This document shows, in pieces, positions 1 through 22,500 of a DNA stretch of 64,000 bases; the first letter of the stretch is position 1; each line of letters starts with the position of its first letter. This stretch comes from Candidatus Omnitrophota bacterium. GTDB taxonomy: Bacteria; Omnitrophota; Gorgyraeia; 2-01-FULL-45-10. The notes under the pieces are model-generated. The model did not search any database, was not told the DNA's origin, and was given only the letters and a program-made list of their open reading frames with translations. The stretch lies in the NCBI GenBank assembly GCA_028715345.1, contig JAQUSB010000003.1, positions 2,004-66,003 of the forward strand, in the 5' to 3' direction. The position numbers were made by a program, and so were the translations under genes.

Positions 1-548
1 AGCATGTCGAGGTGGCGCGTAAATTCGTCGAGCCGCGTCAGTATATAGGGAACGTGCTCTTTTTCTATGTCGCGCCGGACGCCGCCGACTTTCAGCATAG
101 CGTAATTCTGCCTATTGCCCGTGACCGTCTCCATTATATCGCAGATGGGCTCCCTGTATTTCCAGCCCCACATGAATACCGTGTTGTAGCCTAAGAAATG
201 CCCTGCCAGCCCGGCCCAGAGCATATGCGAATGAAGACGCTCCAGTTCCTGCACTATCGAACGTATGTAAAGCGCCCTGTCCGGCACCTTTATCCCGCCC
301 AGGTCTTCGAGCGCCTGGACACAGGTGATCGGGTGGCTCGACGAGCATATGCCGCATATACGCTCCACGATGAATATCGACTGGTCGAAGGTCTTCGCCT
401 CGGATAATTTCTCGATGCCGCGATGGTTCCAGCCTATACGGACATCGACATCTACGACCTTCTCACCCTCGACGACGAGCTTGTAAAATTCCGGCTCTTC
501 CTGCAAGGGGTGATACGGGCCTATGGGTATATGCGCTTTATGGCTCAT
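1..548 (-). CDS. [NiFe]-hydrogenase large subunit, group-4 type (NuoD/EchE/HycE-like), N-terminal part; 3' end lies beyond window start
   Basis: Manual minus-strand translation from ATG at 546-548: MSHKAHIPIGPYHPLQEEPEFYKLVVEGEKVVDVDVRIGWNHRGIEKLSEAKTFDQSIFIVERICGICSSSHP... The RxCGxCxxxH motif is the N-terminal Ni-Fe ligand motif. The ATG overlaps the upstream gene's stop as ATGA. Not in the ORF track because it runs off the window edge. Confidence 0.75.
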   Translation of the reverse strand, partial: MSHKAHIPIGPYHPLQEEPEFYKLVVEGEKVVDVDVRIGWNHRGIEKLSEAKTFDQSIFIVERICGICSSSHPITCVQALEDLGGIKVPDRALYIRSIVQELERLHSHMLWAGLAGHFLGYNTVFMWGWKYREPICDIMETVTGNRQNYAMLKVGGVRRDIEKEHVPYILTRLDEFTRHLDM

Positions 549-1012
549 GCTTTCCTCGAATCTCTTTTGGGGACTATGAAATTCTTCCTCAAAGGGTAAA
601 CGCCCGTCGGCCAGTCATCGGGAAGAAGGAGCGGCCGCAGGTCGGTGTTGCCGTCAAAGTGTATGCCGAAAAGTTCATGCATCTCCCTCTCTATCCACCA
701 GGCCGATCTAGTTACACCAGTTATGGTGTCTATATGCGGGTCCTCTTTTTCTTTAATTATAGCGCGGAGGGAAACGACAAACCCGGACGCGTCTTCGGCG
801 AAATGGTAAAGCACTTCTATCGCGTCGAAATCATCGACCGCAGTGGCAATGGCAAATCTCAAGCCGAGCTCTTTGAACATATATTTAGTTAATAACACAA
901 TATCTTTCGGGTAGATGTCGACATAGGCGCGTTTCTCGTTCTTCTTCTCGGCCTTTATCACCTTCGACCCGAATTTATTCCGGATATCGCTTAAAATGTC
1001 ATCGATCTTCAT
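545..1012 (-). CDS. NuoC-like (complex I 30 kDa subunit family) hydrogenase subunit
   Basis: 155 aa. Resembles NuoC/EchD-type subunits of group 4 hydrogenases. Sits between the small and large subunit genes. Confidence 0.65.
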   Translation of the reverse strand: MKIDDILSDIRNKFGSKVIKAEKKNEKRAYVDIYPKDIVLLTKYMFKELGLRFAIATAVDDFDAIEVLYHFAEDASGFVVSLRAIIKEKEDPHIDTITGVTRSAWWIEREMHELFGIHFDGNTDLRPLLLPDDWPTGVYPLRKNFIVPKRDSRKA

Positions 1013-1013
1013 A

Positions 1014-1439
1014 TTATTTTTTCACCGTTATTTTATCGACTAGCTTTTTCATGCCCGCTATTATGGCTTCCGGTTTCGGCGGGCATCCCGGTATATACAC
1101 ATCCACAGGCACTATCTCGTCCAGAGGAGCGCCCGTATTGTAGCTGTCTTTGAATACCCCTCTCGACGAGCCGCACGCGCCCCAGGCCACGACGAACCCC
1201 GGCTTCGGCATCATCTCGTACAGCTTCTTTATGCGCGGCACGCAAAGCCTGTTCGTCGATCCCGTACATATCAGGACATCGGCGTGCTTGACGCTGCCGA
1301 CCATGATTATGCCGAAGCGTTCCAGGTCGTATCTCGGCGTAAGCGTGTCGAGAAATTCTATGTCGCAGTTATTGCAGCTGCCGCTCGAAAGATGGAACGC
1401 GTATATCGATTTGGACAATACCTTCTCTTTAAATCCCAT
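1014..1439 (-). CDS. [NiFe]-hydrogenase small subunit, NuoB-like (20 kDa family)
   Basis: 141 aa. Cysteines in NuoB/EchC-like spacing: SCNNCD...CTGS...ACGS...PGCPP. This is the proximal 4Fe-4S signature. Confidence 0.75.
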   Translation of the reverse strand: MGFKEKVLSKSIYAFHLSSGSCNNCDIEFLDTLTPRYDLERFGIIMVGSVKHADVLICTGSTNRLCVPRIKKLYEMMPKPGFVVAWGACGSSRGVFKDSYNTGAPLDEIVPVDVYIPGCPPKPEAIIAGMKKLVDKITVKK

Positions 1440-1440
1440 T

Positions 1441-2382
1441 TTACCTTCCTAAATATGCCAGCGCCGCCGCGATCACGGCGAGCGCGGTAACCGGCCCCCA
1501 GAAAAATTTCACGGCGTGGTCTATCCTTACTCTCGGGTTCGTATTTTTTATCACGACGATGAGCGCAAGTATTATCACGTATTGGATAACGGTCCTGATA
1601 ATGCCTTCAGAGCTGAATGTTATGCCGCCGAAATAAAGTATTATCATCAGGATCGGCAGCGCGAATAGCATTACCGCTTTTGCCAGCTTGAATATCCCCA
1701 GCGCTTTGCCGGAATACTCGATATACGTACCGGCCATTATCTCTGTCTCCGCCTCGGCTATGTCGAACGGTGTAAAACCGAGCTTCGCCTGGACGCACAA
1801 AAGCATTACAATGAACGAAATAACCCCGGAAGCGCTTGCGATCGTATTGCCGTTTGCGGCCTGATGCATCATTATATCACCGAGCCTTATCGCGTAACCA
1901 CTCTTTATTACGGGCACGAGCACCGCTATCACGAACGGCAGTTCGTACGACAACATGAGCTTCATCTCCCTGGAAGCGCCCAGCGAAGCGAGCGGGTTCT
2001 CCGACGCAAAGCCTCCGAGCATCAGGCTTATCGCCGGGATCATTAAAAGGTATATGACGACTATGAGGTCGCCTATGAATCCGGATCCCGGCGCAGGGCT
2101 TATGACTAGGATCATCGTCGAGACGAGCGTCGCGCTTGCCAAAGACAATAGCGGCATCCCCAGAAATATCGCTTTCGAAACGCCTTCCGGTATCAATGTC
2201 TCTTTATAAAAGAGCAGTTTTATCACGTCGAGAAAATTCTGGTACCACGGCGGGCCCACTCTCCATTGGACACGCGCGGTAAGGCGCCTGTCCACCCATC
2301 CGGCGAAAAGCCCCATAGTCGCGGAGAACGCGAAGCCGGGGAAAACCAGGAACAGGAATAAATATTCCAATATCTTCATCAT
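1441..2382 (-). CDS. Membrane subunit of hydrogenase, NuoH/HycD/EchB-like
   Basis: 313 aa, polytopic hydrophobic protein. Size and helix pattern fit the NuoH/HycD family. Adjacent to the hydrogenase subunit genes. Confidence 0.6.
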   Translation of the reverse strand: MMKILEYLFLFLVFPGFAFSATMGLFAGWVDRRLTARVQWRVGPPWYQNFLDVIKLLFYKETLIPEGVSKAIFLGMPLLSLASATLVSTMILVISPAPGSGFIGDLIVVIYLLMIPAISLMLGGFASENPLASLGASREMKLMLSYELPFVIAVLVPVIKSGYAIRLGDIMMHQAANGNTIASASGVISFIVMLLCVQAKLGFTPFDIAEAETEIMAGTYIEYSGKALGIFKLAKAVMLFALPILMIILYFGGITFSSEGIIRTVIQYVIILALIVVIKNTNPRVRIDHAVKFFWGPVTALAVIAAALAYLGR

Positions 2383-2409
2383 AAGTTATCCGTAATTGTA
2401 TCCACAATT

Positions 2410-2435
2410 GTAGGTCACCCTTAAGGGTGACCTAC
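2410..2435. repeat. 26-nt perfect palindrome, copy 1: gtaggtcaccc-ttaa-gggtgacctac
   Basis: Perfect inverted repeat overlapping the stop codon of the ferredoxin gene. Lies 28 nt upstream of the NuoH-like start. No U-tract follows. Confidence 0.6.
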
Positions 2436-2953
2436 TGCTGAGGGATCCGCTTCTTTACCGGGATCGTTTCTCCGATCCCTCTTTCCCATTTGAAATTCGT
2501 CTTGACGAGCAGATTTTCCGATATCTTGAAAATATTTTCTTCTTTATTCTCGTCGAACTCGCCGAAACGTATCCCGCCGTGACTGCACATCTCCAAACAT
2601 ACCGGCGATTGCCCCTCCTGCAACCTGCCTAAGCAATAGTCGCAGCGCGCTATAACGAAAGGTATCGTCTCCGGATAAATGACCCCGAACGGGCAGGCGC
2701 GCGAACAGCTCTTGCACGAAGTGCACCGCATCGAGTAGCGCTTCAACGCGTTATACGGCTGGAATTCGAGCGCTTTCCACGGGCACGACGCGACGCACGG
2801 TGAGTCCTCGCACCGCCTGCAGACAAGCGCGAAGTGCGCGAATTCAAGAAGGCTCAGCACGCCGTTATTCGACGGGTGCTGGATGTAGCTGCAGACCACG
2901 CCGCATTCCCGGCAATTCAGGCATATGTCCAGATCTATGAGCAGTCTCTTCAT
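2432..2953 (-). CDS. Poly-ferredoxin, 4Fe-4S clusters (HycB/HyfA-like electron transfer subunit)
   Basis: 173 aa with four Cys clusters: CLNCRECGVVC, CRRCEDSPCVASCP, CTSCKSCSRACP, CDYC...C...C. Confidence 0.6.
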   Translation of the reverse strand: MKRLLIDLDICLNCRECGVVCSYIQHPSNNGVLSLLEFAHFALVCRRCEDSPCVASCPWKALEFQPYNALKRYSMRCTSCKSCSRACPFGVIYPETIPFVIARCDYCLGRLQEGQSPVCLEMCSHGGIRFGEFDENKEENIFKISENLLVKTNFKWERGIGETIPVKKRIPQQ

Positions 2954-3772
2954 TTAATCCCAGATCTTCTGCAGATCCTTTATCTTGTCGTAAGTGAACA
3001 CAGGCCCGTCCTTACACGCGTAGTAAGGCCCTATTCTGCAATGGCCGCATTTACCGATACCGCACGACATATTCTTTTCCATCGACAAATATATGGCGCT
3101 CTCCTTTATACCGAGGTCGAGAAGCTTGAACGTGACGAACTTCATCATTATCGGAGGGCCGCATACTATCGCTGCGGTATTATTTATGTCGACGAGGCCG
3201 GGCTTCAATACGGTGGTAACCAGGCCTACGTTCCCTTTCCATGTATCGTCGCCCACATCCACGCTCACTTCTATGTCTATGTGCGGTGCTTTCGCTTTCC
3301 AGGAATCTATCTCATTCTTAAAAACTATATCTTTGGGCGAACGCGCGCCGTATTTCAACACTATCTTTTTGTAATCGTTGACCTCGTTAAATAGCGCGTA
3401 TAGAAGCGCCCGCAACGGAGCCAGGCCTACGCCGCCGCCCACTATGAATAATTCTTTCCCCTTAAAATCTTTCAGCGGATAACCGAGGCCGTAAGGACCG
3501 CGGACACCGACGATGTCCCCTGCCTTCGCCTGGTGCAGGAGGCCGGTGACCCTGCCTGTGCGCATTATGGTAAAATCGAGAGTGTCCTTGGAATTGTGGT
3601 TCGATGAAGGCGTGAACGGCGCCTCGCCTATGCCCGGCATCGTCACGTCCATGAATTGGCCGGCGCGGAACCCTATCTCGGTCCGCGGCTTGAGCGTAAA
3701 AGTCTTTATGTTATGCGTCTCTTCTACGACTTTCAATATCTCGGCTTCTGTATATGCGTACGGATTAGTCAT
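2954..3772 (-). CDS. FAD/NAD(P)-binding oxidoreductase with C-terminal 2Fe-2S, sulfhydrogenase gamma (HydG) / AsrB-like
   Basis: 272 aa. Ferredoxin-NADP reductase-like fold motifs: RAGQFMDV and GGGVGLAPL. C-terminal CGIGKCGHC...C cluster, as in PyrK/HydG/AsrB. Confidence 0.65.
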   Translation of the reverse strand: MTNPYAYTEAEILKVVEETHNIKTFTLKPRTEIGFRAGQFMDVTMPGIGEAPFTPSSNHNSKDTLDFTIMRTGRVTGLLHQAKAGDIVGVRGPYGLGYPLKDFKGKELFIVGGGVGLAPLRALLYALFNEVNDYKKIVLKYGARSPKDIVFKNEIDSWKAKAPHIDIEVSVDVGDDTWKGNVGLVTTVLKPGLVDINNTAAIVCGPPIMMKFVTFKLLDLGIKESAIYLSMEKNMSCGIGKCGHCRIGPYYACKDGPVFTYDKIKDLQKIWD

Positions 3773-4814
3773 TCGGCGGTTTATTCCATTTTCCCAAAAC
3801 GAGCCCTTTTAAGACTTCGCGCAGGTCTATATCGCCCGGGCAAGCTTCGATGCACCTGCCGCAGCCCGTGCACGCGAAATAATTCAATACTTCCGGGAAG
3901 AAATCGAACTTCTTCTCGAACCTGTTGCGCAGGCGCTCATATAACTGCTTCCTGGGGTTCGCGCCCCCGGCGACCCTGGCAAATGTATTGTAGAGGCAGG
4001 CATCCCACATCCTGAAACGCTTGTTCCCTGCCGCCGTCTTCTCGTCGAATAAGAGGAAGCAGTGGCACGTCGGGCAGACGAGGTTGCACGCCCCGCATTC
4101 GACGCACGTGGAGGCGAAGTCCTGCCATAACTGCACCAGGTTATAATTTTTCTTCACGGCGCCTTTTATCTGGGCGGTATTCTGTGTTCCCCTTTTATCG
4201 ATAAAATACTGCACTTCCCTGGTAACTTTTTCGCGGTTGGCCTGCCTTTTATTGAGGTCTGTAGCCGTATGCGGTTTGAAGAACATCCTGAAATTATTTA
4301 CAAGCCTCTCGCCCGCGGCGCTACCTACTTCGACGATGAAATGGTCATTTATACCGGACAGGTTTATATCGAAATATTTTTGCGGGTAAGGCGCGCCTTC
4401 CATCGCCAGGCAGAAGCATGTCTCTTTGGCGTAAGTGCAGTCTGTACCTATAATGAGGGTGTTTTTCCTGTTCTCGGCGTAAAAGGGATCCTCGGCGTCG
4501 CCTTTTAAAAATACGAAATCCTGCAGGATCAGGCTCGACAGGTCGCAGCCCTTCACCCCGGCTATGATAACCGGCTTCTTTTCTTTGGGTTTGCCGTCAA
4601 GGATCTTTTCTCTGGCGGGATTTATAAAGCTCTTTAAGGGCTGCGTCTGTCTGATGCCGCCCAACTCTATATCGCTTTCTTTTCCTGGATCGAACTCGCC
4701 GAAATGCAGCCTTTCCCCTTTAACGTAGGGGACGAAAATCCTATGCTCGGAAGACAACCTCGTGAATAGATCGTACAGATCTTTTTTGGTGATTTTGTAA
4801 ATTTTTTTCTCCAT
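3765..4814 (-). CDS. Iron-sulfur subunit, sulfhydrogenase beta (HydB) / AsrA-like
   Basis: 349 aa. Motifs CVECGACNLVCPTCHC and CTGCGRCIEACP. The HydB/AsrA family is always paired with the gamma/B subunit. Confidence 0.6.
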   Translation of the reverse strand: MEKKIYKITKKDLYDLFTRLSSEHRIFVPYVKGERLHFGEFDPGKESDIELGGIRQTQPLKSFINPAREKILDGKPKEKKPVIIAGVKGCDLSSLILQDFVFLKGDAEDPFYAENRKNTLIIGTDCTYAKETCFCLAMEGAPYPQKYFDINLSGINDHFIVEVGSAAGERLVNNFRMFFKPHTATDLNKRQANREKVTREVQYFIDKRGTQNTAQIKGAVKKNYNLVQLWQDFASTCVECGACNLVCPTCHCFLLFDEKTAAGNKRFRMWDACLYNTFARVAGGANPRKQLYERLRNRFEKKFDFFPEVLNYFACTGCGRCIEACPGDIDLREVLKGLVLGKWNKPPND

Positions 4815-4888
4815 AACTTCTCATAGTGTAAGTATTTATTTTAGAACGCGCCGCAGGTTAAGTCAATTCAATTTTAGATACATTACCC

Positions 4889-5296
4889 CTAAAATTTTAC
4901 GACCATGGCCCTGGGCGGGCATGCCCTTACGCACAGCTCGCAAGCGATGCATTTGTCGGAATCGAACAGCACCTTCATCGTCTTTTTGTCTATATAGAGC
5001 GCTTCTGTGGGGCATACGGATATGCAGGCGCCGCACTGCGTGCACCTCGATTCGTCCCTGGTCACATCCTTGCTCAAAGGCTGTATCTTCACGCCGAGGC
5101 CTGTAAGGTATTTTACGCCAGCGACGTAATTTTCCTTTTTGCCTTTCAGCTCCAACACCATGAGCCCTTCTTCCTTGGGCGTTATCTTGGCCTGTAGAAT
5201 GTTAAAAACGAGGTCAAAATCTTTGACAAGCTTATAAACTATCGGCTCATCGACCAATTTGTGCGGAAAAGTAAGTACTATTCTTTTGGATACCAT
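4889..5296 (-). CDS. NIL-domain / 4Fe-4S ferredoxin fusion protein
   Basis: 135 aa. N-terminal NIL-like domain, then CTQCGACISVCP and CIACELCVRACP. Confidence 0.55.
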   Translation of the reverse strand: MVSKRIVLTFPHKLVDEPIVYKLVKDFDLVFNILQAKITPKEEGLMVLELKGKKENYVAGVKYLTGLGVKIQPLSKDVTRDESRCTQCGACISVCPTEALYIDKKTMKVLFDSDKCIACELCVRACPPRAMVVKF

Positions 5297-5327
5297 GTCA
5301 AAACCTCCCTCATGTTAAAACCTCGGC

Positions 5328-6047
5328 CTATATTAGCTTTATTTCTCCCCAGCTTCCTAACTTATCGCCTATTATTATCAAAACGCCTTTAACGCCTTCT
5401 ATCGAGCGGGCAAGATCGATACCTTTTTTTATATCGTCGCCGCTCTTCACGGCATTCCCCGCCACCGTGGCGGCGGCGTCGGCAAGGGCTGCGCTATCCG
5501 ATACGATGAGGGCCGCGTCGGCATTGCCGAAACTCAATGAGTGGCTGACGGTGCCGCTCGACGTGCAGACGCCTAAGCCCTTTTCACTCAGGCCTATCTC
5601 TATGGCGAGATTGCCTGTGAAAGGCGATCTATCGCCGGCGTATATGCCCATCTTTCTTGTTTTCGCGGACCTGATAAATATGTCGCCGCCGTTCTCCACT
5701 ATCACTTCGTCCGAGAAGGCCATAAGGTCCCGCCCGACGAACTCGGCTACCGCGCCCGCGACAGCGGCCATCGGCCCTACGCCTGCTTTCGCCGCGGCAT
5801 CGGCCATGGCCTTAATGATAGCGGGAGCATTATCCTTAAGATCCACCGGCGCCAACGATGTATAAAATTCCGGGTCTTTCCGGATATACCGTTCTATGTC
5901 TGCCCTGCATGCCAGTATCGATCCGCGGGCCTGGTCCGTCAAATTCCTGGCGGCCATTATAAAAAGATCGGTCTCCCTCTCTTTCACCTCGAAAGAAACG
6001 AGATCCTCGGAATCGACCCAATCCCTGTATGCGCGTTCTTTGAACAT
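5328..6047 (-). CDS. Uncharacterised protein, UPF0280/ApbE-like superfamily (tentative)
   Basis: 239 aa, Ala/Gly-rich. Family assignment is from recollection only. Confidence 0.3.
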   Translation of the reverse strand: MFKERAYRDWVDSEDLVSFEVKERETDLFIMAARNLTDQARGSILACRADIERYIRKDPEFYTSLAPVDLKDNAPAIIKAMADAAAKAGVGPMAAVAGAVAEFVGRDLMAFSDEVIVENGGDIFIRSAKTRKMGIYAGDRSPFTGNLAIEIGLSEKGLGVCTSSGTVSHSLSFGNADAALIVSDSAALADAAATVAGNAVKSGDDIKKGIDLARSIEGVKGVLIIIGDKLGSWGEIKLI

Positions 6048-6053
6048 ATTATT

Positions 6054-7058
6054 TTAGCATATCCTGGGCAATTGTTCACCCGATAGCATATCCACAAGCC
6101 TGCGCCCGCCTGCCGCCGTATTTAGGCAAACTTTGCCCTTCTCTTCTTTAGTGATTTCCCCTATGATGTTCGCGCGCTTTCCGTTCTTATCTTTGCGGAT
6201 GATCTTCAATATTTTGTCCGCCTCTTTTGCCGCCGCGATAAAAATAACGCGCCCTTCGCAGGCAAGATAGAGCGGATCAAAACCCAAAAGCTCGCACGCC
6301 TGCCCGACGCCGTCACTGACAGGGACGGCTTTCTCGTCCAGAGCGATCCCGAACTTATGCGATGCCGTGATCTCGTTAAGCGTCGTGGCAACGCCGCCCC
6401 TCGTCGGATCTCTCATGAATTTCACGCTCGTCCCGGACGCTTTCAGGACTTTTTCGATAAGCCTGTTCAAGGCAGCCGAGTCGCTCTTTACTTTTGTTTT
6501 GAATTCAATGCCTTCGCGCCCAGACAGGACGCTTATAGCGTGTTCGCCTATGGGCCCGCTTACGATAACTTTATCTCCTGCCTTTATCCTATCGGGCGAA
6601 AGTTTATCGTAATATATCTCGCCCAGCCCGCTCGTATTTATGAAAATCTTGTCACAGCTTCCCCTCTCGACCACTTTTGTATCGCCGGTCACTATGCTTA
6701 CGCCTGCTTTTTCGGCTGCCGCGGCGGCGGACCTTACTATCTTTTCCAATATGCTTTTATCGAGCCCTTCTTCTATTATGAGGCCGAACGAAAGGTGTGC
6801 CGGGCGGGCGCCGCATACCGAAAGATCGTTCACCGTCCCGTGCACAGCGAGGCTGCCTATGTCCCCTCCCGGGAAAAATATCGGGTTAACAACGTATGAG
6901 TCCGTCGTGAACGCTATCCGCGTTTTGCCTATCGTCAATATCGCGGAATCTTTTTTCTGGCGCAGTATATTATTATCGAATTCCTTCATGATTACAGAAT
7001 CGATGAGCTTATGCATCAATGTCCCGCCGCTGCCGTGGGAAAGCGTTATCTTGTCCAT
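6054..7058 (-). CDS. hypE: Hydrogenase maturation carbamoyl dehydratase HypE
   Basis: AIR-synthase-like fold (MDKITLSHGSGG...). Ends with the conserved C-terminal PRIC motif. Start moved to the internal ATG at 7056-7058, because the longer ORF would overlap hypD by 68 nt. Confidence 0.8.
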   Translation of the reverse strand: MDKITLSHGSGGTLMHKLIDSVIMKEFDNNILRQKKDSAILTIGKTRIAFTTDSYVVNPIFFPGGDIGSLAVHGTVNDLSVCGARPAHLSFGLIIEEGLDKSILEKIVRSAAAAAEKAGVSIVTGDTKVVERGSCDKIFINTSGLGEIYYDKLSPDRIKAGDKVIVSGPIGEHAISVLSGREGIEFKTKVKSDSAALNRLIEKVLKASGTSVKFMRDPTRGGVATTLNEITASHKFGIALDEKAVPVSDGVGQACELLGFDPLYLACEGRVIFIAAAKEADKILKIIRKDKNGKRANIIGEITKEEKGKVCLNTAAGGRRLVDMLSGEQLPRIC

Positions 7059-7062
7059 TTTA

Positions 7063-8145
7063 TTATATCCTGCCCCTGTATTTATAATACGCCGCGCACG
7101 CCCCTTCGCTCGACACCATACAGGCGCCAACGGGATGCTCCGGGGTACAAAGTTTCGCGAACAATTTGCACTCGGGCGGCGTCTTCACTCCCTTTATTAC
7201 TTCGCCGCATATGCACGCCTTGTTTTCCTTCGGCGCGGCTATCTTCGGTTTAAATCTCGCCTCGGCATCGAATGCGCCGAATTCTTTTCGTATTTTTAAG
7301 CCGCTCTTTTTTATGCATCCTATACCGCGCCACGAAGAATCGTCAGCCTCAAAAACTTTATCGATGCTGTTTTTCGCTAATCTGTTCCCCGACTTCGTTA
7401 TTATCCTCGTATATTGTATCTCGATTTTCGGAGTCTTTTGTTCCAACAGCATCAATATCGCCTGCAATATATCGAGCGGCTCGATCCCGGCTACAACGCA
7501 GCGTTTCCCTCTTTTAGTCAAAAATCGATACGGCGCCGTCCCTATTACCGCGCTGACGTGGCCCGGTAGTAAAAATCCGTCTATATTAAGCTTCGGCTCT
7601 TCGGTCAGGGCCTTCAATGCCTCAGGCATCGTTTTATGGCCGCAGAGGACGGAGTAATTTTTCAATTTTTCTTTTTTTGCCGCGATAATAGACTGCGCGA
7701 CCGTCGGCGCCGTCGTTTCAAAACCTATCCCTAAAAATATCACCTCTTTATCCGGGTTTTTCTTTGCCAATTCAAGCGCGTCCATACTCGAATAGACCAT
7801 TTTTACTGCCGCGCCGCGGGCTTTTTCCTTATCGAGGCTCGAATGCGAGCCCGGCACCCTGAACATGTCGCCGAATGTCGCGATAATAGAATCTTTCCTT
7901 CGGGCAAGCGCTATCGCTTTATCGATGAACTCATTCGGCGTAACGCATACCGGGCATCCCGGGCCGGATATGAGGTTGATGTTCCCGGGCAATATGCCGC
8001 GCAAGCCGAAACGGAATATGCTCATCGTGTGCGTACCGCACACTTCCATGAAATTGTACCCACGGCGCGGATCCGCCTTCGCGCGTATCCGGCCGGCGAC
8101 TTTGTCTATGAGCCGCCTATTTCTGAATTCGTCTATGTATTTCAT
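7063..8145 (-). CDS. hypD: Hydrogenase maturation factor HypD
   Basis: 360 aa. Motifs CGTH, GPGCPVC and CPVC characteristic of HypD. Confidence 0.85.
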   Translation of the reverse strand: MKYIDEFRNRRLIDKVAGRIRAKADPRRGYNFMEVCGTHTMSIFRFGLRGILPGNINLISGPGCPVCVTPNEFIDKAIALARRKDSIIATFGDMFRVPGSHSSLDKEKARGAAVKMVYSSMDALELAKKNPDKEVIFLGIGFETTAPTVAQSIIAAKKEKLKNYSVLCGHKTMPEALKALTEEPKLNIDGFLLPGHVSAVIGTAPYRFLTKRGKRCVVAGIEPLDILQAILMLLEQKTPKIEIQYTRIITKSGNRLAKNSIDKVFEADDSSWRGIGCIKKSGLKIRKEFGAFDAEARFKPKIAAPKENKACICGEVIKGVKTPPECKLFAKLCTPEHPVGACMVSSEGACAAYYKYRGRI

Positions 8146-8148
8146 TTT

Positions 8149-8355
8149 TTACAGGTCTTTTAACGCGCGGAGAGTCTTACGCGCTTCGCTTTCTTTGAGT
8201 TTCTCGATCGCGAATCCCGCGTGCATGAGGATGTAGTCACCCGGCCTCGCCGTCTTCATCAGCGAGAAGTTCGCTTTTTTGCGCAAGCCGCCGGATTCGA
8301 CGACCCCATCGTCACCGTCTATCTTTATGACCTTCATCGGTATCCCTAAACACAT
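8149..8355 (-). CDS. hypC: Hydrogenase maturation factor HypC/HupF
   Basis: 68 aa. N-terminal MCLGIP motif. Confidence 0.8.
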   Translation of the reverse strand: MCLGIPMKVIKIDGDDGVVESGGLRKKANFSLMKTARPGDYILMHAGFAIEKLKESEARKTLRALKDL

Positions 8356-9470
8356 AGTGCCCTCGTATTCGCTATCGCTATCTGCCCTATCGGTATGCCG
8401 ATATCGTTCACCGGAACGCTTCTTGGCGGATACACCTCCAGGCCTTTTGCCCTCAGCCCTTCCACCGCCCTGGCCGTAAGATATTTGTTCTGAAAAACAC
8501 CGCCGGACAACACGACTTTCTTCGTCTTAAACCGCTTGCTTAAGCCCGCCGATATTTTCACGATAATATCCGCTATCGTATTGTGAAATTTGCACGCGAT
8601 AACGGCTTTGTCCGTCTTTTTTGCCAGGTCTTTAACTACCCCTTTTATCAGCGGGGAAGTCTTTATTATAAGCTCTTTTCTTTCTTTTCCGATATCAAAA
8701 TCATACTTATCGCGGCAGCCCGTCCGGATCGTCTTTTCCAGCTCTATCGGCAGCTCGGCCTCCCGCGTAACGCGGTCTTTGGCTAAAATAAGGCTCGCCG
8801 CGCCGTCGAACAGCCTGCCCGCGCTCGACGTAAGCGGAGAATTTATATTTTTATCGATCATTTTCTTTATCACAGACGCGTCGGCGCGGTTTCGTTTCTT
8901 TACAATGGTCATGAACTTGGGGCCGAATGCGCCATACAGGTAACTTACGGCCATGCGCCACGGCTGCCTCACCGCCATATCTGCGCCGGGCATCGGATAA
9001 TATTCCAGGTGAGCGGCCCTGGTAAAGCCTTTCAGCGAGCCTGCAAAAAATTCACCGCCCCAGATATTTCCGTCCGTGCCGTAGCCCGTGCCGTCGAAAG
9101 CGACGCCTATCACGTCTGCTTTTATGTCATTGTCCGCGATCGAGGAAGCGATATGGGCTTCGTGGTGCTGTATCCTGCAAAGCCTCGTTCCTTTGGTTTT
9201 AAGCTGTAAACTCTCGGCGAAATGCGTCGAAAAGTAATCCGGATGAAGGTCGCAAGCTATCACCTGCGGTTTTATGCCGAATTTTTTGCGGTACAGATCG
9301 ACTTCGGCGGAATATCTCTTAAAATTACCGAGCTCGCCCAGGTCGCCGAGATCGTACACGAGGAACGCGTCTCTGCCGGCAGCCAGGGCAAACGCGCCCT
9401 TCAGGTCGGCCCCGCAGGCAAGTATCGGTTTTTTCACGCTAAACGGCAGCTTCATCCGTCGAGTAACCAT
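8346..9470 (-). CDS. hypF: HypF-like carbamoyltransferase, Kae1/YgjD-like C-terminal domain only (truncated architecture)
   Basis: C-terminal HypF motifs CDLHPDY and LSGGVFQN...VP.NDIGI..GQ. The acylphosphatase, Zn-finger and YrdC parts are absent. Probable start is ATG 9468-9470 or 9453-9455. The ORF track's longer GTG start at 9713 would run through the palindrome-rich intergenic region. Confidence 0.6.
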   Translation of the reverse strand: MVTRRMKLPFSVKKPILACGADLKGAFALAAGRDAFLVYDLGDLGELGNFKRYSAEVDLYRKKFGIKPQVIACDLHPDYFSTHFAESLQLKTKGTRLCRIQHHEAHIASSIADNDIKADVIGVAFDGTGYGTDGNIWGGEFFAGSLKGFTRAAHLEYYPMPGADMAVRQPWRMAVSYLYGAFGPKFMTIVKKRNRADASVIKKMIDKNINSPLTSSAGRLFDGAASLILAKDRVTREAELPIELEKTIRTGCRDKYDFDIGKERKELIIKTSPLIKGVVKDLAKKTDKAVIACKFHNTIADIIVKISAGLSKRFKTKKVVLSGGVFQNKYLTARAVEGLRAKGLEVYPPRSVPVNDIGIPIGQIAIANTRALCV

Positions 9471-9910
9471 GGTAATATTATAACAAATCACCGTCCCGCG
9501 GAGGGGAAAATTTTTCGCTGCCCCGTAAAAGAATTCCCTCGGGATTGTGCCTCGCGTGGACGCGCAATTTTCAACCATGTGAAAATTGCGCTCGGTAAAA
9601 TTTCTCGTACGCTGCCTCGAAATTTTAACGCCCCGCTCGGCACGAATCCCTGCGGAAATTCTTTTCACCGGAGATCGAAAAACTTTTTTTACTAGTGTAG
9701 AGAAAATTTTCACTTACACGGGATGGCAGAACTTTTGGGTGGTGCCGGAGCGAATCTTGAAATTTTCGATACCTTATGCCGATGCAGGCTTTACCATCGA
9801 AAATTTCACGACAGTGAGCGAGGATGGCTTCTTCCTTCGCGAACGACGAGCGGAGGCACCACCCGAAAGTAAATGCCTGACTGAGGTGAAAATTTTCTCG
9901 GAGCGAACCC
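9471..9910. promoter_or_regulatory. Intergenic region with about 9 copies of the self-complementary motif GAAAATTTTC (variants GAAATTTTC, GAAAATTTC)
   Basis: Motif copies near 9509, 9572, 9581, 9597, 9620, 9703, 9760, 9801 and 9890. Contains a 12-bp-stem hairpin 9562-9591 (gcgcaattttca-accatg-tgaaaattgcgc). No credible ORF. Lies upstream of the hypF start and downstream of the pdaD stop. Confidence 0.4.
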
Positions 9911-10480
9911 CTAGAAGAGAAACACTGCCGCGGCGACTACCGTGGAATAATTGCCGTCCGGGCCGACTACGGCGGATTGGGTGGTATTTGACGTGCGGAT
10001 GATCTTGTCGCTCAGCTGGTATATGGCCTTATTCTCGTCCCACGACTTATCCTCGTCGAATTCGAGGCCGAGGGTCGACGCCAACATTTCTACCGCCAGG
10101 TCTTCGGCGAGGTCCCCGGCCACTTTTTCGCTCTGGCCGAAGGCGTGGTGCTCGCTCAAGTACCCGTAGGCCTGCGGATCCGCCGGGACGGCACAGCCGA
10201 TCGACGCCGCGATAAGGCGGTGCGGCTCGTTGCCGTTGCACCTGGACATTACTGCATACGTTATCATCCCGGGATAAAGTTCTTTTAAGCCTTCGTTCCT
10301 GGAAACGACTTTGCACTCGGGCGGTAGTATGCTCGAGACATGGACGAGGTTGCACTTCTCTATACCCGCGTCGCGCAGAGCAAGCTCGAAGCTCCTCAAT
10401 TCCGCCTTGTGGGTGCCGACACCTTTAGTGAAGAACATCTTTTTGGGAACAAGCAGGTTTTTCCTGGGAACTAATAGCAT
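9911..10480 (-). CDS. pdaD: Pyruvoyl-dependent arginine decarboxylase
   Basis: FTKGVGTHK...SFELAL..AGI...[11 protein letters not shown] matches the PdaD family, including the serinolysis site region. Paired with the agmatinase gene. Confidence 0.7.
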
Positions 10481-10486
10481 CGCATA

Positions 10487-10596
10487 CCTTTCAAGTTTAT
10501 TCAGCCTAGGGTTAGCTAAGTGCCGATATCTCCGATATCGGCCAAGTTTATTCAGCCATAGGGTTAGCTAAGTGCCGAGGTCTTTAGACCTCGGCC
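10487..10596. repeat. Two tandem copies of a 52-bp unit, each ending in a short hairpin
   Basis: Unit: agtttattcagcc(t/at)agggttagctaagtgccga plus hairpin. Hairpin 1 is ccgatatc-tc-cgatatcgg. Hairpin 2 is ccgaggtc-ttta-gacctcgg, followed by a T-rich tail on the plus strand. Confidence 0.5.
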
Positions 10597-11480
10597 TATT
10601 TCTTTCCGTAGAATATATAGCCCAACAGCCTGTAAATAAGTTTCGCAGCGAAAAAGTCCGACGCTACCTGCCCTTTTATCGGGCATAGCTCCACCACGTC
10701 GAAACCCACCACCTTCTTGTCTTTAGCGACGTCCCTGAGAAGGTCGAGCACTTCATACCATCCCAACCCGCCCGGTTCGGGCGTCCCGACCGCCGGCATA
10801 AGCGCGGGATCGAAAACGTCAAGGTCTATAGATATGTACACATTTTCCGCAAGAGAGTTCGTGACCTTGTCTTTCCACATCGGCGTATCGAGTATATCGT
10901 AAACATCTATGGTCTTGACCTTGGCGCCCGGTCCCTGCGAGGAGAGAAAATCCTTCTCTTCCTTCGATATGCTCCTCATCCCCACCTGCACTAGCGGGCA
11001 GATCTCGCTGATCCGCCGCGCCACACAGCCGTGATTGAGTTTCGAACCGAAATATTCATTCCTGAGGTCGTTGTGCGCATCGAGATGCAGGACCGAAATA
11101 TCGGGGTATGTCTCTTTGAAAGCCTTCACCGCGCCTACGGAAACGGAGTGTTCGCCTCCGAGCATAACGGGGAACTTCCCTGCCTTAAGGAGCTCCAGGG
11201 TCGACGAATAGACTTTCGCTACCATCTCCTCCGGACTGAGCTTTTCGACTTCGAGAGGCTCCGCTGTATGGATGCCTATCTTGAACGTTTCCTGATTTAT
11301 TTCGTCGTCGTACAGCTCCAGATACCTGGAAGCGTCTATGATAGCGGCCGGGCCCGAAGCGGTGCCGTGGATATAGGTCGTCGTCTTATCATAAGGGGCC
11401 TGCATTATAGCGACCTTGGCCTTTTTAAAACTGGAATATTCGTCCGGGAGAGCTATGAAATTTTTATTTGTCTCGTCCAT
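10596..11480 (-). CDS. speB: Agmatinase (arginase/ureohydrolase family)
   Basis: 294 aa with arginase-fold Mn-binding motifs: GGEHS, DAHNDL, SIDLDVFDPA. Confidence 0.75.
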   Translation of the reverse strand: MDETNKNFIALPDEYSSFKKAKVAIMQAPYDKTTTYIHGTASGPAAIIDASRYLELYDDEINQETFKIGIHTAEPLEVEKLSPEEMVAKVYSSTLELLKAGKFPVMLGGEHSVSVGAVKAFKETYPDISVLHLDAHNDLRNEYFGSKLNHGCVARRISEICPLVQVGMRSISKEEKDFLSSQGPGAKVKTIDVYDILDTPMWKDKVTNSLAENVYISIDLDVFDPALMPAVGTPEPGGLGWYEVLDLLRDVAKDKKVVGFDVVELCPIKGQVASDFFAAKLIYRLLGYIFYGKK

Positions 11481-19577: not shown

Positions 19578-22500
19578 TTAACCGGGCCGCAGGACTTTTA
19601 TCGGGCTCTTCGTTATGTCTCTTTGAATGCGGCTTATTTTAAGTTCGCCCCTCGGTTTATCTATATCGTCCGGCAGGACCAATTTGTTCTTGGCCAGGGA
19701 AGCTCCTAAAACGCCTTCCATAGCCTGGCGCAGCATCCAGCCTGCCGCACCCGTATAGCCGTGCCATATCATGCGCCCCTGGTCGAATGTGGTCAGGATG
19801 TCGGCCGATTGTTTATTAGGCTGCCCGCCGTACAGCTCCACCTCTTTTACGCGCGGTATCGGCGAAACTTTGAGCCACAGCCTGTACGAAGTCTTTCTAT
19901 ATTCATCGGCTTTGGCGCGGTCGCCTCTGCGGTCGAATTCTTCGGCGATAAGGCGCGCCGCCCTTACAAGCCACTGGACTCCGTGGCAATACATACCGTT
20001 CTCGCGCACGCCTTCCGGATATTTGCTGCTCCTGCCGAGATACGGCTTGGTGTCTTCGCGCAGGGCCGGCCACCCGAGGAGGATAGCGTTCTCCCTCTCC
20101 AGGACGTCCAGCGCCGTATTGAATACCGTCAGGCCCCTTTCGAAATTGATGCCTGCTTTCACCGCCCACGACGCCGTCAGCGCGTCTATCTCCCAGACGC
20201 CGCTTCCTTTTATGCCTATCTCCGTGCCGTCGTCATGGAACGCGCGCAAATACCTGTCGCCTCTCCACGTCTTCTCGAGGCTTGTTTTAAGATCTTCCAT
20301 CCTCTTTACGTAATACGCTTTTTTCTCCTTGCCTTCCTTCATCTCTATGATATTGACCATCTCTTTCAGGATATAATAAAGGAAGAAGCCGAGCCATACG
20401 CTCTCGCCCTTGCCTTCGCTTCCTATCTCGTCGAGCCCGTCGTTCCAATCGCCCGTCTGGATAAGCGGCAGCCCGTTCTTGCCGGTCCTGTCCTTTAAGA
20501 TGAGGTCTACGGACTTCATGCAGTGCTTGTATATGGTGTCGGATCTCGTCGTCCTGTGGTACAGATGCCCCCAGCCCTGCTTGTTCTTCGGGAGCTTCGC
20601 GAACGGGAATTGCGATATGACGTACGAGGCCATCTCGTCGAGTATCGACGTATCGCCCGTCGTCCTTATATATTCGACAACGCCCCAGACAAGCCATACA
20701 GGATTGTCGGAAGCGTGGGACCTGCATGAGAACGCAGTCCGTCCGTCCGTCAACGTAAAGAACCAGTGGAAGACGTCGCCTTCGATGAACTGCTGGGAGG
20801 CGTGCAGTATTATCTGCTTGCGCGCCAGCGCCGGATCGACCCATATGAGGTTGACGGTATCCTGCAGCTGGTCCCTGAAACCGTAAGCGCCGCTCGTCTG
20901 GTAGAACCCGCGCCTCGCCCATATACGTTCGGCAAGGGCCTGGTACTTCAGCCAGTCCTGGTAGCGGTCGAATTCGGGCTTGTTCGTTTCGACTTTGAGC
21001 GTATCCATAAGGCCGAGCCACCACTTCTTTGTCTGGGCCAGGCTCTTACGTACCTCGTCCACGTTCTTATATTTTCTGATTATTTTATCCGCTTCTTTCC
21101 TGTCGTCGCATTGGCCCATTACGACCGACATGGTATGCTCTCCGTGCGCGGGTATAGTGACCTCCTCCAGGAACGCGGCCACCTGCGAAATATCGCCGAA
21201 ACATTTCCTGTCGGATGAGCCTTCTTTTACCATATACGGGCGCACGACATCGCCGCCGCATCCGAAGAACTTGCCGCGGCTCGTTTCGACCGCAGGCGAC
21301 TTCATAGAAGTGGAAACGAACGCCCATCCTGAGCGGAAAATGTTACGGGGGTTATTGAAGAATAACGACCCGGTCGACCTTTGATATTTCATCATCAGCG
21401 GGCCGGCCCGTTCGGGCTGGAATCCCAGCACCATCTGGAAATACGGGACAATGCGCAATTTCTTGTCGCGGTCCGAATTATTCTTCACCGTGAGCAGATA
21501 TAAACCTGCAGGGTCGTCCGGCGGGACAAATACCGTAAGCTCAGTCGAAACAGAACCGCGGGCCATACGGAAGATAGCGGTCCCGTCGACGCTGAACTCG
21601 GATTCGCATCGGGCGCTCTTATCGCGGAGCGGCAGATACGTCGGCGAGTACCAGTCGTTGCCGTCCGGGTCGTACAGGTAGAACGCTTCCGTCGGTATCT
21701 CTTTTGTGACTATGTCCGGCCAGTCGGGCGTCAGCCTGTTCTGCTGTGAATTACCGTTAGAGGACGTGTGAAGCCCCCTGTTCGTGACCATGATCGAATG
21801 GACTGCGTTAGATACGGCATGGTCGATAGGGCGCGGCGTGAAGGGCGTATGGACGACCAGTTTTTTGCCGTCCTGGCTGAACGTGGAATACGGCTGCGGC
21901 GTCCCCGGGGGGATCTCGCCGTGGCCGATAAGGACAGACGCTTTTTTGGCCGCAGCGGCCGCTTTCGCTTTGGGCGCGGCGCTCTGGGGCTTCAGATGTT
22001 GGGCGATCAATTCGAGAGCCGTCTTCTTATTTTTCGTAAACCCTATCATGAAGCGTACCTTCACTGAAGCCTTCGGAGCGATCTGTGCATTGACTGCAAG
22101 GCTTCCTATAGGATCGAATGTCGGATACGGGTTCGTATCGCGCGCCGTCAGGAAATTGAGCGTCTCGAGTATTCGCGGCGACCAGATACTGCGCACGCGG
22201 CCGATGAAATCGACTCGTGAAGTGAGGAACCCTTCCGGCGCGGCATCGCTGGCCAGGATACCCATCGTCTTCGCGCTCTTCTGGTACGCGAGCACGGCGT
22301 TGGAAGAACTTACGTATTCCATCTCCGGATATAACCTGGCGTATTGCGTATGGAACCTGTCATGGATACCGCCGACAAGCACCCATTCAAGGTACGGGAC
22401 CACTTTAAGTTCCCTCGCCTTGTCCGTGGTATTTTCGAGAGTGACTTCCCATATCTCGGCGTTGCTTTCTTTATCCGGCAGGCTTATCTTTATATTCGTC

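What the first reader, a model, noticed from the sequence alone, without database searches (positions are those of the whole stretch)
1..5296. Hydrogenase cluster mixing group-4 membrane-type subunits with a sulfhydrogenase-type NAD(P)H module
The large subunit, the NuoC-like and NuoB-like subunits and a NuoH-like membrane subunit indicate an energy-converting (Ech/FHL/Mbh-like, group 4) enzyme. Immediately upstream in the same operon direction are HydB/HydG (AsrA/AsrB)-like subunits, typical of cytosolic group 3b NAD(P)-linked sulfhydrogenases, plus a HycB-like polyferredoxin and a NIL-4Fe-4S protein. No Mrp/NuoL-type antiporter subunit appears between 1441 and 5296. This suggests a minimal membrane-bound hydrogenase wired to NAD(P)H rather than to ferredoxin or formate, an arrangement that is uncommon. 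The remaining subunits, if any, lie beyond the window start.
Basis: partly seen in the sequence, partly recalled or inferred. Interest (0 to 1): 0.6.

Follow-up and report, generated by a model that had tools for sequence, protein, structure and literature searches.

The report
Front half of a Hun hydrogenase operon

Summary
The gene content is as described. On the minus strand, 4814→1 encodes an AsrA/HydB-like protein, an AsrB/HydG-like flavoprotein, a four-cluster ferredoxin, NuoH-, NuoB- and NuoC-like subunits, and the first 182 residues of a group-4 [NiFe] large subunit.

The "minimal, antiporter-less" reading fails. In all 24 related loci where the DNA after the large subunit is visible, a full Mrp-type antiporter module follows. 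It comes directly after the large subunit or after one inserted gene. The closest genomes are among them (97% and 90% identical in the large-subunit fragment). After the Mrp module come a NuoI-like ferredoxin and, in most loci, the HycI protease.

Gene order and the CGIC/CYCC nickel-binding signature match the published Hun complex (Glass et al. 2021; HydDB group 4g). The same arrangement is called the "Mbh-Mrp-oxidoreductase type" by Méheust et al. 2020. It was reported in Omnitrophica, Elusimicrobia, Atribacteria, Bacteroidetes and Kosmotoga.

The NIL-ferredoxin gene is not part of the cluster. It pairs with a COG2122-type gene, and a conserved promoter-like site separates it from hunA.

The NAD(P)H idea remains plausible and untested: all flavin, NAD(P)H and 2Fe-2S motifs of HunB are conserved.

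Already known; interest is low to moderate.

The parts
1..548 (-). hunG, N-terminal 182 residues of the [NiFe] group-4 large subunit; cut by the window start
   Evidence: Translation. Pfam NiFeSe_Hases and Complex1_49kDa. L1 motif RICGICSSSH. 96.7% identical to the 395-aa L003 orthologue, which carries L2 DPCYCCTER and a C-terminal extension. The ATG overlaps the hunF stop by 4 nt.
545..1012 (-). hunF, NuoC/MbhK-like subunit (155 aa)
   Evidence: Complex1_30kDa 3.5e-25. Conserved position in all related loci.
1014..1439 (-). hunE, NuoB/MbhJ-like small subunit (141 aa) with the Cys pattern for one proximal [4Fe-4S] cluster (SC-NN-C ... GAC ... GCPP)
   Evidence: Oxidored_q6 1.5e-28. NuoB subfamily model NF005012 scores 139.7 bits against a cutoff of 116. 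Sequence.
1441..2382 (-). hunD, NuoH/MbhM-like membrane anchor (313 aa, about 9 hydrophobic segments)
   Evidence: NADHdh 2e-61. Hydropathy.
2432..2953 (-). hunC, CooF/HycB-like ferredoxin (173 aa) with 16 invariant Cys, i.e. four [4Fe-4S] clusters
   Evidence: Fer4_11 2.2e-14. Invariant Cys at 11/14/17/21, 45/48/53/57, 77/80/83/87 and 104/107/119/123 across 13 loci. PDB relatives include the FHL subunit HycB, 7z0s_B, at 1.3e-10.
2954..3772 (-). hunB, AsrB/HydG-like flavoprotein (272 aa): FAD, NAD(P)H site and a [2Fe-2S] cluster
   Evidence: FAD_binding_6, NAD_binding_1 and DHODB_Fe-S_bind. 9nez_C at 6.4e-54. GEAPFTPSS, GGGVGLAPLR, CGPPIM and C237-x4-C242-x2-C245-x7-C253 are invariant in 13 Hun loci and in P. 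furiosus HydG.
3765..4814 (-). hunA, AsrA/HydB-like iron-sulfur subunit (349 aa), first gene of the conserved operon
   Evidence: Fer4_22 1.1e-29. 9nez_B at 2e-36. 15 Cys are invariant, including in P. furiosus HydB. Genes upstream of hunA differ between loci.
4838..4866 (-). Promoter-like site TTGACT-17 nt-TAAAAT in the 74-nt gap before hunA
   Evidence: Joint-best match in 10.6 kb (10 of 12) and the best on the coding strand. Both hexamers are conserved in L003 and L004 while the flanking sequence diverges. This is a consensus match only, not shown to be functional.
6054..9713 (-). Accessory [NiFe] maturation genes upstream: hypF (C-terminal Kae1-like half only, 9713→8346), hypC (8355→8149), hypD (8145→7063), hypE (7130→6054)
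   Evidence: HypF_C and HypF_C_2. tblastn synteny with L003, L004, L026, L029, L041 and L043. hypC, hypD and hypE are assigned from sequence and from the Pfam-annotated counterparts in L021.

Best explanation
Window 4814→1 is the promoter-proximal part (hunA to hunG) of a hun operon in an Omnitrophota genome. The remaining genes lie just beyond the window start: hunH-O, an Mrp-type ion-translocating module with two antiporter-like subunits; hunP, a NuoI/HycF-like ferredoxin; and hycI.

The encoded enzyme is a roughly 16-subunit, Mrp-linked group-4 [NiFe] hydrogenase. Its peripheral arm is wired like formate hydrogenlyase: input module, then the HycB-like HunC, the HycF-like HunP, the NuoB-like HunE, and finally the Ni-Fe site in HunG. 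In place of a formate dehydrogenase, the input module is a sulfhydrogenase beta/gamma-like pair, HunA and HunB.

Most likely mechanism (inferred, not shown): HunB exchanges a hydride with NAD(P)H at its FAD. Electrons pass through its [2Fe-2S] cluster, the HunA clusters and the four HunC clusters to the hydrogenase module. The reversible reaction NAD(P)H + H+ <-> NAD(P)+ + H2 is coupled to H+/Na+ movement through HunD and the Mrp module. Because H2 evolution from NAD(P)H is uphill by about 18 kJ/mol at standard conditions, either the ion gradient helps drive H2 release at moderate H2 levels, or H2 oxidation to NAD(P)H pumps ions when H2 is plentiful. Ferredoxin may be an additional or alternative partner at HunC or HunP.

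My sub-probabilities: it is a Hun operon with Mrp genes beyond the edge, about 0.93; NAD(P)H is a physiological partner, about 0.5.
For: **Identity**
- The nearest genomes, L003 (9.5 kb collinear at 77% DNA identity; large-subunit fragment 96.7% identical) and L004, continue after hunG with the following genes: a 602-aa Proton_antipo_M protein, MbhD/E, MnhB, Oxidored_q2, a 491-aa Proton_antipo_M/N protein, MNHE, MrpF, MnhG, a NuoI-like Fer4 protein and HycI.
- The same order holds in 24 distinct loci from at least six phyla. Every one shows an antiporter module after the large subunit.
- The published HunG signature CGIC/CYCC is present in all Hun-type loci where L2 is visible. It is absent from the Ech-type and other group-4 loci fetched (DPC[IV]SC, DPCFSC).

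**Literature**
- Hun operon and its HydDB 4g assignment: 10.1101/536078.
- "Mbh-Mrp-oxidoreductase type": 10.1101/765248.
- asrA/asrB/cooF plus Mrp in Saganbacteria, with Omnitrophica as the nearest relatives: PMC6349859.
- Omnitrophota "Group 4g, Mrp-linked": PMC8542988.

**Wiring**
- HunC matches HycB and HunP matches HycF best, at 4.6e-15.

**NAD(P)H**
- HunB and HunA match the solved NADPH-linked sulfhydrogenase I gamma and beta subunits.
- Every cofactor motif is invariant.
- No other catalytic input subunit is conserved next to hunA.
- A Rex-type NADH-sensing regulator sits divergently next to hunA in one Bacteroidales locus.
Against: - The window itself stops inside hunG. The Mrp module, HunP and the L2 motif are therefore inferred for this genome from relatives, not seen. 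The source contig was not found in the collections.
- No biochemical data exist for any Hun complex in the library searched.
- The only published model assumes ferredoxin, not NAD(P)H, as donor.
- HunA and HunB score below the NCBIfam cutoffs for both the sulfhydrogenase and the Asr families, so they form a separate subfamily whose substrate could differ.
- Rex and Rnf adjacency was each seen in only one locus.
- No Rex operator above chance was found in the window.
Confidence: 0.8

Rival explanations
1. One reading: a minimal, antiporter-less membrane hydrogenase (NuoH-type anchor only) wired to NAD(P)H.
For: Within the window no antiporter-like gene lies between 1441 and 5296.
Against: The operon is cut by the window start. 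All 24 related loci with visible downstream DNA, including the 97%-identical and 90%-identical relatives (large-subunit fragment), carry a full Mrp module after the large subunit, directly or after one inserted gene.
Confidence: 0.03
2. Ferredoxin-only Hun (model of Glass et al.): HunABC merely accept electrons from reduced ferredoxin and relay them. The enzyme is then a conventional ferredoxin-driven, ion-pumping, H2-evolving Mbh with extra iron-sulfur subunits, and the HunB nucleotide site is vestigial or regulatory.
For: This is the published proposal. HydDB annotates group 4g as putatively ferredoxin-coupled. HunC and HunP are ferredoxin-like and could dock ferredoxin as MbhN does. Ferredoxin to H2 is exergonic and fits an ion-pumping module.
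Against: A vestigial site would not keep the FAD motif, GGGxGxAPLR, CGPPxM and the 2Fe-2S cysteines invariant across phyla and identical to the NADPH-using sulfhydrogenase gamma subunit. P. furiosus MBH needs no such subunits to use ferredoxin.
Confidence: 0.3
3. HunAB serve a catalytic subunit encoded elsewhere (formate-hydrogenlyase-like), as in the variants with a molybdopterin oxidoreductase gene inserted next to hunB.
For: Saganbacteria RX5A and "some MAGs" carry a molybdopterin protein in the cluster.
Against: No such gene lies in the 19.5 kb of the window upstream of the cluster that was scanned, nor next to hunA in any of the loci examined here. Their upstream neighbours are unrelated to each other.
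Confidence: 0.07
4. Two unrelated enzymes that happen to be adjacent: a soluble AsrAB-like sulfite or sulfur reductase fragment, plus a separate Mbh.
For: HunA and HunB score comparably against the AsrA/AsrB and sulfhydrogenase subunit models.
Against: There is no AsrC (siroheme) gene in the cluster or nearby. The hunA-hunB-hunC-hunD order is invariant in every locus, with overlapping or abutting reading frames.
Confidence: 0.03

Closest known systems
Hun complex (hunA-P), Glass et al. 2021, bioRxiv 10.1101/536078; the same arrangement is called the 'Mbh-Mrp-oxidoreductase type' group-4 hydrogenase by Méheust et al. 2020 (10.1101/765248) and is described for Saganbacteria RX5A (PMC6349859)
   Same: Same gene order: AsrA-like, AsrB-like, FeS protein, NuoH, NuoB, NuoC, large subunit, then the Mrp-like genes and a NuoI-like protein in the relatives. 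Same CGIC/CYCC signature. Same phylum among the reported hosts (Omnitrophica).
   Different: Nothing substantive. This lineage has hyp genes, plus an inserted COG2122 and NIL-ferredoxin pair, directly upstream. Some relatives carry a PhoU-like gene or a third antiporter-like gene inside the Mrp block.
Pyrococcus furiosus membrane-bound hydrogenase MBH (PDB 6CFW; HydDB group 4d)
   Same: Mrp-linked group-4 [NiFe] hydrogenase. The large subunit is 42% identical. It has homologous NuoB-, NuoC-, NuoH- and NuoI-like subunits and MbhD/E, MnhB, C, E, F and G counterparts.
   Different: MBH has one antiporter-like subunit, takes electrons from ferredoxin directly at MbhN, and has no HunA, HunB or HunC. 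Its L2 motif is CLSC, not CYCC.
Escherichia coli formate hydrogenlyase FHL-1 (PDB 7Z0S; group 4a) and Thermococcus onnurineus Fdh-Mrp-Mbh (group 4b)
   Same: Same peripheral-arm logic: a substrate-oxidising module feeds a four-cluster HycB-type ferredoxin, then a HycF/NuoI-type subunit, then the small subunit. HunC matches HycB and HunP matches HycF best. The 4b enzymes are also Mrp-linked.
   Different: The input module is a flavoprotein/FeS pair, not a molybdopterin formate dehydrogenase. The large subunit is only 38% identical to HycE, and NuoC is not fused to it.
Pyrococcus furiosus soluble sulfhydrogenase I (PDB 9NEZ; group 3b), beta and gamma subunits
   Same: HunA and HunB are homologous over their full length (2e-36 and 6.4e-54), with all cluster, FAD and NAD(P)H motifs shared.
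   Different: The catalytic subunits are group 4, not group 3b, and the complex is membrane-bound. HunA and HunB fall below the NCBIfam cutoffs for HydB/HydG and ShyB/ShyC.
Salmonella anaerobic sulfite reductase AsrABC
   Same: HunA and HunB resemble AsrA and AsrB (TIGR02910 at 1e-35; TIGR02911 at 5.5e-68).
   Different: There is no AsrC siroheme subunit. Scores are below the family cutoffs (124 against 323 bits; 229 against 289 bits).

Membership tests
Hun complex (Glass et al. 2021) | Operon begins with AsrA-like, AsrB-like and FeS-protein genes, followed by NuoH-, NuoB- and NuoC-like genes and a group-4 large subunit, in that order | tested here: met
   Window 4814→1. Identical order in all related loci.
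Hun complex (Glass et al. 2021) | Mrp/Mnh-like module (HunH-O) and a NuoI-like HunP downstream of the large subunit | tested here: inconclusive
   This lies beyond the window start, so it is not visible for this genome. It is present in the nearest relatives L003 (as far as the contig runs) and L004, and an antiporter module follows the large subunit in all 24 distinct loci with downstream DNA.
Hun complex (Glass et al. 2021) | Large-subunit metal-binding signature: L1 CGIC and L2 CYCC | tested here: inconclusive
   L1 RICGICSSSH is present in the window. L2 lies outside the window. DPCYCCT[ED]R is present in every Hun-type relative, including the 96.7%-identical L003 protein, and absent from the Ech-type and other group-4 loci.
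Hun complex (Glass et al. 2021) | No AsrC (siroheme sulfite reductase) partner for the AsrAB-like pair | tested here: met
   No such domain was found in any ORF scanned from 1 to 19.5 kb.
HydDB [NiFe] group 4g | Classification of the full-length large subunit by the HydDB classifier | not testable with these tools
   No HydDB tool is available and only 182 residues are in the window. The literature reports 4g for HunG and for the Mrp-linked enzymes of Omnitrophota.
[NiFe] group 4 (energy-converting) hydrogenases | NuoD-type large subunit with an N-terminal CxxC; NuoB-type small subunit with a single proximal cluster; NuoC- and NuoH-type partners | tested here: met
   For the L003 orthologue, the best solved relatives are MbhL (4.6e-91) and HycE (1.3e-86).
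[NiFe] group 3b sulfhydrogenase | Group-3b alpha and delta catalytic subunits together with the beta and gamma subunits, forming a soluble heterotetramer | tested here: not met
   The large subunit scores 150.9 bits on a NuoD model against 27-30 bits on the ShyA/HydA models. The small subunit is NuoB-type, and a membrane anchor is present. Only the beta/gamma-like pair is shared.
Ech-type / minimal six-subunit group 4e hydrogenase | Only two membrane subunits (NuoH-like and one NuoL-like) and no Mrp module | tested here: not met
   Relatives carry eight Mrp-type genes. The genuine Ech/Coo-type loci retrieved (L015-L020) differ in gene order and in the L2 motif.
Formate hydrogenlyase (groups 4a / 4b) | Molybdopterin formate dehydrogenase as the electron-input subunit | tested here: not met
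   No molybdopterin protein lies in or next to the cluster, either in the window or in the loci examined.
Anaerobic sulfite reductase AsrABC | AsrA and AsrB above the family score cutoffs, plus AsrC | tested here: not met
   TIGR02910 scores 123.6 bits against a cutoff of 323. TIGR02911 scores 228.9 against 288.6. There is no AsrC.

The most novel reading that the evidence does not exclude
Hun is an ion-translocating NAD(P)H:proton oxidoreductase, or in reverse an H2:NAD(P)+ oxidoreductase that pumps Na+/H+. That would make it a group-4 hydrogenase that acquired a pyridine-nucleotide dehydrogenase module (SHI beta/gamma-type) independently of the NuoEFG module of complex I. No group-4 hydrogenase has been shown to have this activity. 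It would give fermenters a way to dispose of NADH electrons as H2 using the membrane potential, and would give H2-consuming acetogen-like bacteria an extra coupling site.
Probability: 0.45. Interest if true: 0.6.

Novelty: already known. Interest (0 to 1): 0.3.

Why it matters
This particular locus adds little. The gene cluster, its distribution (Omnitrophica included) and its odd CYCC motif are already published.

The input module looks like a competent NAD(P)H dehydrogenase, whereas the published model assumes ferredoxin.

If NAD(P)H is the partner, Hun would be a second, independent solution to linking pyridine nucleotides to an Mrp-type ion pump, parallel to complex I. It would also change how H2 and redox budgets are modelled for many uncultivated subsurface phyla.

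Cultivated Kosmotoga species carry the operon, so the question can be tested experimentally.

Tried and rejected
- **Finding the source contig to read past the window start.** An exact-protein look-up of HunF found no record. An exact 49-mer scan of the metagenome collection found nothing. A protein-based scan returned at best the same 87-93% relative. The downstream content therefore rests on relatives.
- **Homologue search with the truncated large subunit.** It returned only partial proteins, probably because of the short query. It was useful only as an entry point to contigs.
- **Rex as support for NADH coupling.** A Rex gene lies next to hunA in one Bacteroidales locus but in no other locus and not in the window. 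A Rex-operator search of the window gave one 3-mismatch hit inside hypE, which is at chance level. I treat this as a weak hint only.
- **Rnf adjacency.** Seen only in L002, so not used.
- **In-frame stop in the L002 large subunit.** It sits at a position that is Leu in L003, in one metagenome contig. I regard it as an error or a pseudogene, not recoding.
- **Selenocysteine or split large subunit as an explanation for the many 'partial' hits.** Rejected. The L001 and L022 splits come from contigs with fragmented gene calls throughout.
- **Sulfite reductase and formate hydrogenlyase readings.** Rejected for lack of AsrC and of a molybdopterin subunit.
- **Literature follow-up on Hun biochemistry.** Nothing found.
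- **HydDB classification.** Could not be run.

Full report
**1. What is in the sequence**

All genes of the finding lie on the minus strand. In order of transcription they are:
- NIL + ferredoxin protein, 5296→4889
- AsrA/HydB-like protein, 4814→3765
- AsrB/HydG-like protein, 3772→2954
- Fer4_11 polyferredoxin, 2953→2432
- NuoH-like membrane protein, 2382→1441
- NuoB-like protein, 1439→1014
- NuoC-like protein, 1012→545
- the first 182 residues of a [NiFe] large subunit, 548→1, cut by the window edge

Pfam and NCBIfam confirm every assignment with strong E-values. The large-subunit fragment carries the N-terminal nickel-binding motif RICGICSSSH. From the AsrA-like gene onward the reading frames overlap or abut, with gaps of -8, 0, 49, 1, 1 and -4 nt.

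**2. What lies beyond the window edge**

The source contig could not be found, but close relatives could.
- L003 is a Candidatus Omnitrophota MAG. It is collinear with the window over 9.5 kb at 77% DNA identity. Its cluster proteins are 87-93% identical to the window's, and its large subunit is 96.7% identical to the window fragment.
- L004 is a second Omnitrophota MAG, with 69-87% protein identity.

In both, the large subunit (395 and 417 aa) is followed directly by a 602-aa Proton_antipo_M protein, an MbhD/MbhE fusion, MnhB and a NuoK/MnhC-like protein. L004 continues with a 491-aa MrpD-like protein, MnhE, MrpF, MnhG, a PhoU-like protein, a NuoI-like 2x[4Fe-4S] protein and the HycI protease.

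The same order is found in loci from Nitrospinaceae, Methylomirabilales, Planctomycetales, Endomicrobia/Elusimicrobia and Bacteroidales, and in further metagenome contigs. The order is AsrA-like, AsrB-like, Fer4_11, NuoH, NuoB, NuoC, large subunit, Mrp block, then a NuoI-like gene, and HycI in most loci. In all 24 distinct loci where DNA after the large subunit is visible, an antiporter module follows.

It does.

**3. Which enzyme this is**

The literature already describes this cluster.
- Glass et al. (bioRxiv 10.1101/536078, section 8) named it the 16-subunit "Hun" complex. They found it in Atribacteria, Firmicutes, Omnitrophica, Elusimicrobia, Bacteroidetes and cultivated Kosmotoga. They obtained a HydDB group 4g call for the large subunit HunG, and they pointed out a distinctive signature: CGIC in L1 and CYCC in L2.
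- Méheust et al. (10.1101/765248) call the same arrangement the "Mbh-Mrp-oxidoreductase type" and state that the function of the oxidoreductase is unknown.
- Matheus Carnevali et al. (PMC6349859) describe asrA-, asrB- and cooF-like genes next to a group-4 hydrogenase with Mrp subunits in Saganbacteria. Its nearest relatives are in Zixibacteria and Omnitrophica.
- Williams et al. (PMC8542988) list "Group 4g, Mrp-linked" hydrogenases in Omnitrophota.

I tested the signature directly. Every Hun-type locus fetched has DPCYCCT[ED]R. The Desulfovibrio Ech/Coo-type loci and other group-4 loci retrieved by the same searches have DPC[IV]SCTER or DPCFSCNDR. The window's own L2 is outside the window, but its 96.7%-identical orthologue has it, together with a HycE-like C-terminal extension that fits the hycI protease gene found at the end of the operon in relatives such as L004.

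The full-length orthologue is 42% identical to P. furiosus MbhL and 38% identical to E. coli HycE.

**4. The operon boundary and the NIL-ferredoxin**

The NIL-ferredoxin gene and the UPF0280 gene upstream of it (NCBIfam PRK04334, 3e-89) occur in front of hunA only in a subset of close Omnitrophota relatives: L003, L004, L029, L041 and L043. They are absent in L025, L026 and L040 and in all other phyla. There the genes upstream of hunA are unrelated to one another.

The 74-nt gap between the NIL-ferredoxin gene and hunA holds the best coding-strand promoter-like match in 10.6 kb, TTGACT-17 nt-TAAAAT at 4866→4838. Both hexamers are conserved in L003 and L004 while the sequence around them diverges.

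NIL/ferredoxin and COG2122 proteins are two of the three components of the DUF39 homocysteine-synthesis route, shown genetically in Desulfovibrio and Methanosarcina (PMC5764234). That UPF0280 corresponds to COG2122 is from my own knowledge, not tested here. No DUF39 gene was seen within 19.5 kb.

I conclude that the conserved hydrogenase operon starts at hunA and that the NIL-ferredoxin is a neighbour, not a subunit.

**5. How it probably works**

Shown by sequence:
- HunB aligns over its full length with the gamma subunit of the solved NADPH-linked sulfhydrogenase I (9nez_C, 6.4e-54).
- Four HunB elements are invariant across 13 Hun loci and P. furiosus HydG: the flavin-binding stretch (GEAPFTPSS), the nucleotide-binding GGGVGLAPLR and CGPPIM motifs, and the four cysteines of the [2Fe-2S] cluster.
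- HunA matches the beta subunit (9nez_B, 2e-36) and has 15 invariant cysteines.
- HunC has 16 invariant cysteines, i.e. four [4Fe-4S] clusters. It belongs to the CooF/HycB family, which includes the HycB subunit of E. coli formate hydrogenlyase.
- The NuoI-like HunP of the relatives matches HycF best.

Inferred: the peripheral arm is wired like formate hydrogenlyase, with the SHI beta/gamma-like pair taking the place of formate dehydrogenase. Electrons would run from NAD(P)H to FAD, then the [2Fe-2S] cluster, the HunA clusters, the HunC clusters, HunP, HunE and finally the Ni-Fe site.

Energetics, from standard potentials (established knowledge: about -320 mV for NAD(P)+/NAD(P)H and -414 mV for H+/H2): H2 evolution from NAD(P)H costs about +18 kJ/mol at standard conditions. 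An Mrp-coupled enzyme would therefore do one of two things. It could spend ion gradient to release H2 when H2 is not scavenged, or it could conserve energy while oxidising H2 to NAD(P)H. The direction cannot be read from the sequence.

The window also encodes sugar ABC-transporter permeases, a ROK-family protein, a glucoamylase-like protein and a GH94 phosphorylase-like protein. These fit a sugar-fermenting lifestyle in which H2 is an electron sink.

Glass et al. instead propose ferredoxin as the donor to HunABC. That remains a serious rival, and ferredoxin could also enter at HunC or HunP alongside NAD(P)H. Both characterised relatives of HunAB work with pyridine nucleotides. Sulfhydrogenase uses NADP (HydDB table). 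The Salmonella Asr enzyme is NADH-linked by my recollection, which I did not verify here. This, together with the invariant motifs, is why I put NAD(P)H coupling at about even odds.

**6. Verdict**

The group-4 assignment and the chimeric NAD(P)H-type module hold. "Minimal", "no antiporter", "uncommon" and the NIL-ferredoxin as a subunit do not.
- The cluster is a regular member of the published Hun / Mbh-Mrp-oxidoreductase family, so I rate it already known.
- The remaining scientific interest is generic to the family, not to this locus. No Hun complex has been characterised biochemically in the literature searched. The question of NAD(P)H versus ferredoxin coupling is open and can be tested in Kosmotoga.

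Noticed in passing
window 45890-63988 (minus strand); also 40035-45686 and 19578-25709: A giant ORF of at least 6032 aa starts about 12 nt from the window end. Its Pfam hits are scattered enzyme-like domains: ribulose-phosphate 3-epimerase, HAD hydrolase, histidine phosphatase, two GNAT acetyltransferase regions and HEAT repeats. It is followed by an 1883-aa ORF with no Pfam hit. A separate 2043-aa ORF has GH94 (cellobiose/chitobiose phosphorylase-like) domains at its C-terminus. From memory, giant genes are reported for Omnitrophota; these ones were not analysed further.
   Followed up: partly
window 4889-6047 (minus strand): A NIL + 2x[4Fe-4S] protein (5296→4889) and a UPF0280/PRK04334 protein (6047→5328) sit between the hyp genes and hunA. 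They match two of the three components of the DUF39 homocysteine-synthesis pathway (PMC5764234). No DUF39 gene was seen within 19.5 kb. The pair is present at this position only in a subset of Omnitrophota relatives.
   Followed up: partly
window 8346-9713 (minus strand): The hypF gene encodes only the C-terminal Kae1-like domains (HypF_C, HypF_C_2). The acylphosphatase, zinc-finger and YrdC-like domains found in the 765-aa HypF of locus L021 are missing. The same short form occurs in L003, L004 and other relatives, so the N-terminal half is either encoded elsewhere or dispensable.
   Followed up: partly
L021 4968-5594 (Bacteroidales MAG JAIPAP010000002): A Rex-type redox-sensing regulator (Put_DNA-bind_N + CoA_binding) lies divergently, directly upstream of hunA. 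It was seen in this one locus only.
   Followed up: yes
L002 9305-9310 (JGI Ga0599244_0000645); L002 17522-19307: The Hun large subunit of this contig has a single in-frame stop at a position that is Leu in L003, probably an error or a pseudogene. In the same contig rnfC and rnfD follow the hun operon after hycI and one further gene. This was not seen in other loci.
   Followed up: yes
L010 12267-13421, L013 12349-13575, L014 4997-6328; L008 9268-9873, L009 5590-6174, L004 17867-18499: Variants inside the Mrp block. Endomicrobia/Elusimicrobia loci carry a third antiporter-like (MrpD-type) gene between hunG and hunH. Planctomycetales loci carry a PhoU-like gene directly after hunG. Several Omnitrophota loci carry a PhoU-like gene before hunP.
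   Followed up: no
window 9911-11480 (minus strand): A pyruvoyl-dependent arginine decarboxylase gene (10480→9911) and an agmatinase/arginase-family gene (11480→10596) lie adjacent. Together they form a putrescine-synthesis pair.
   Followed up: no
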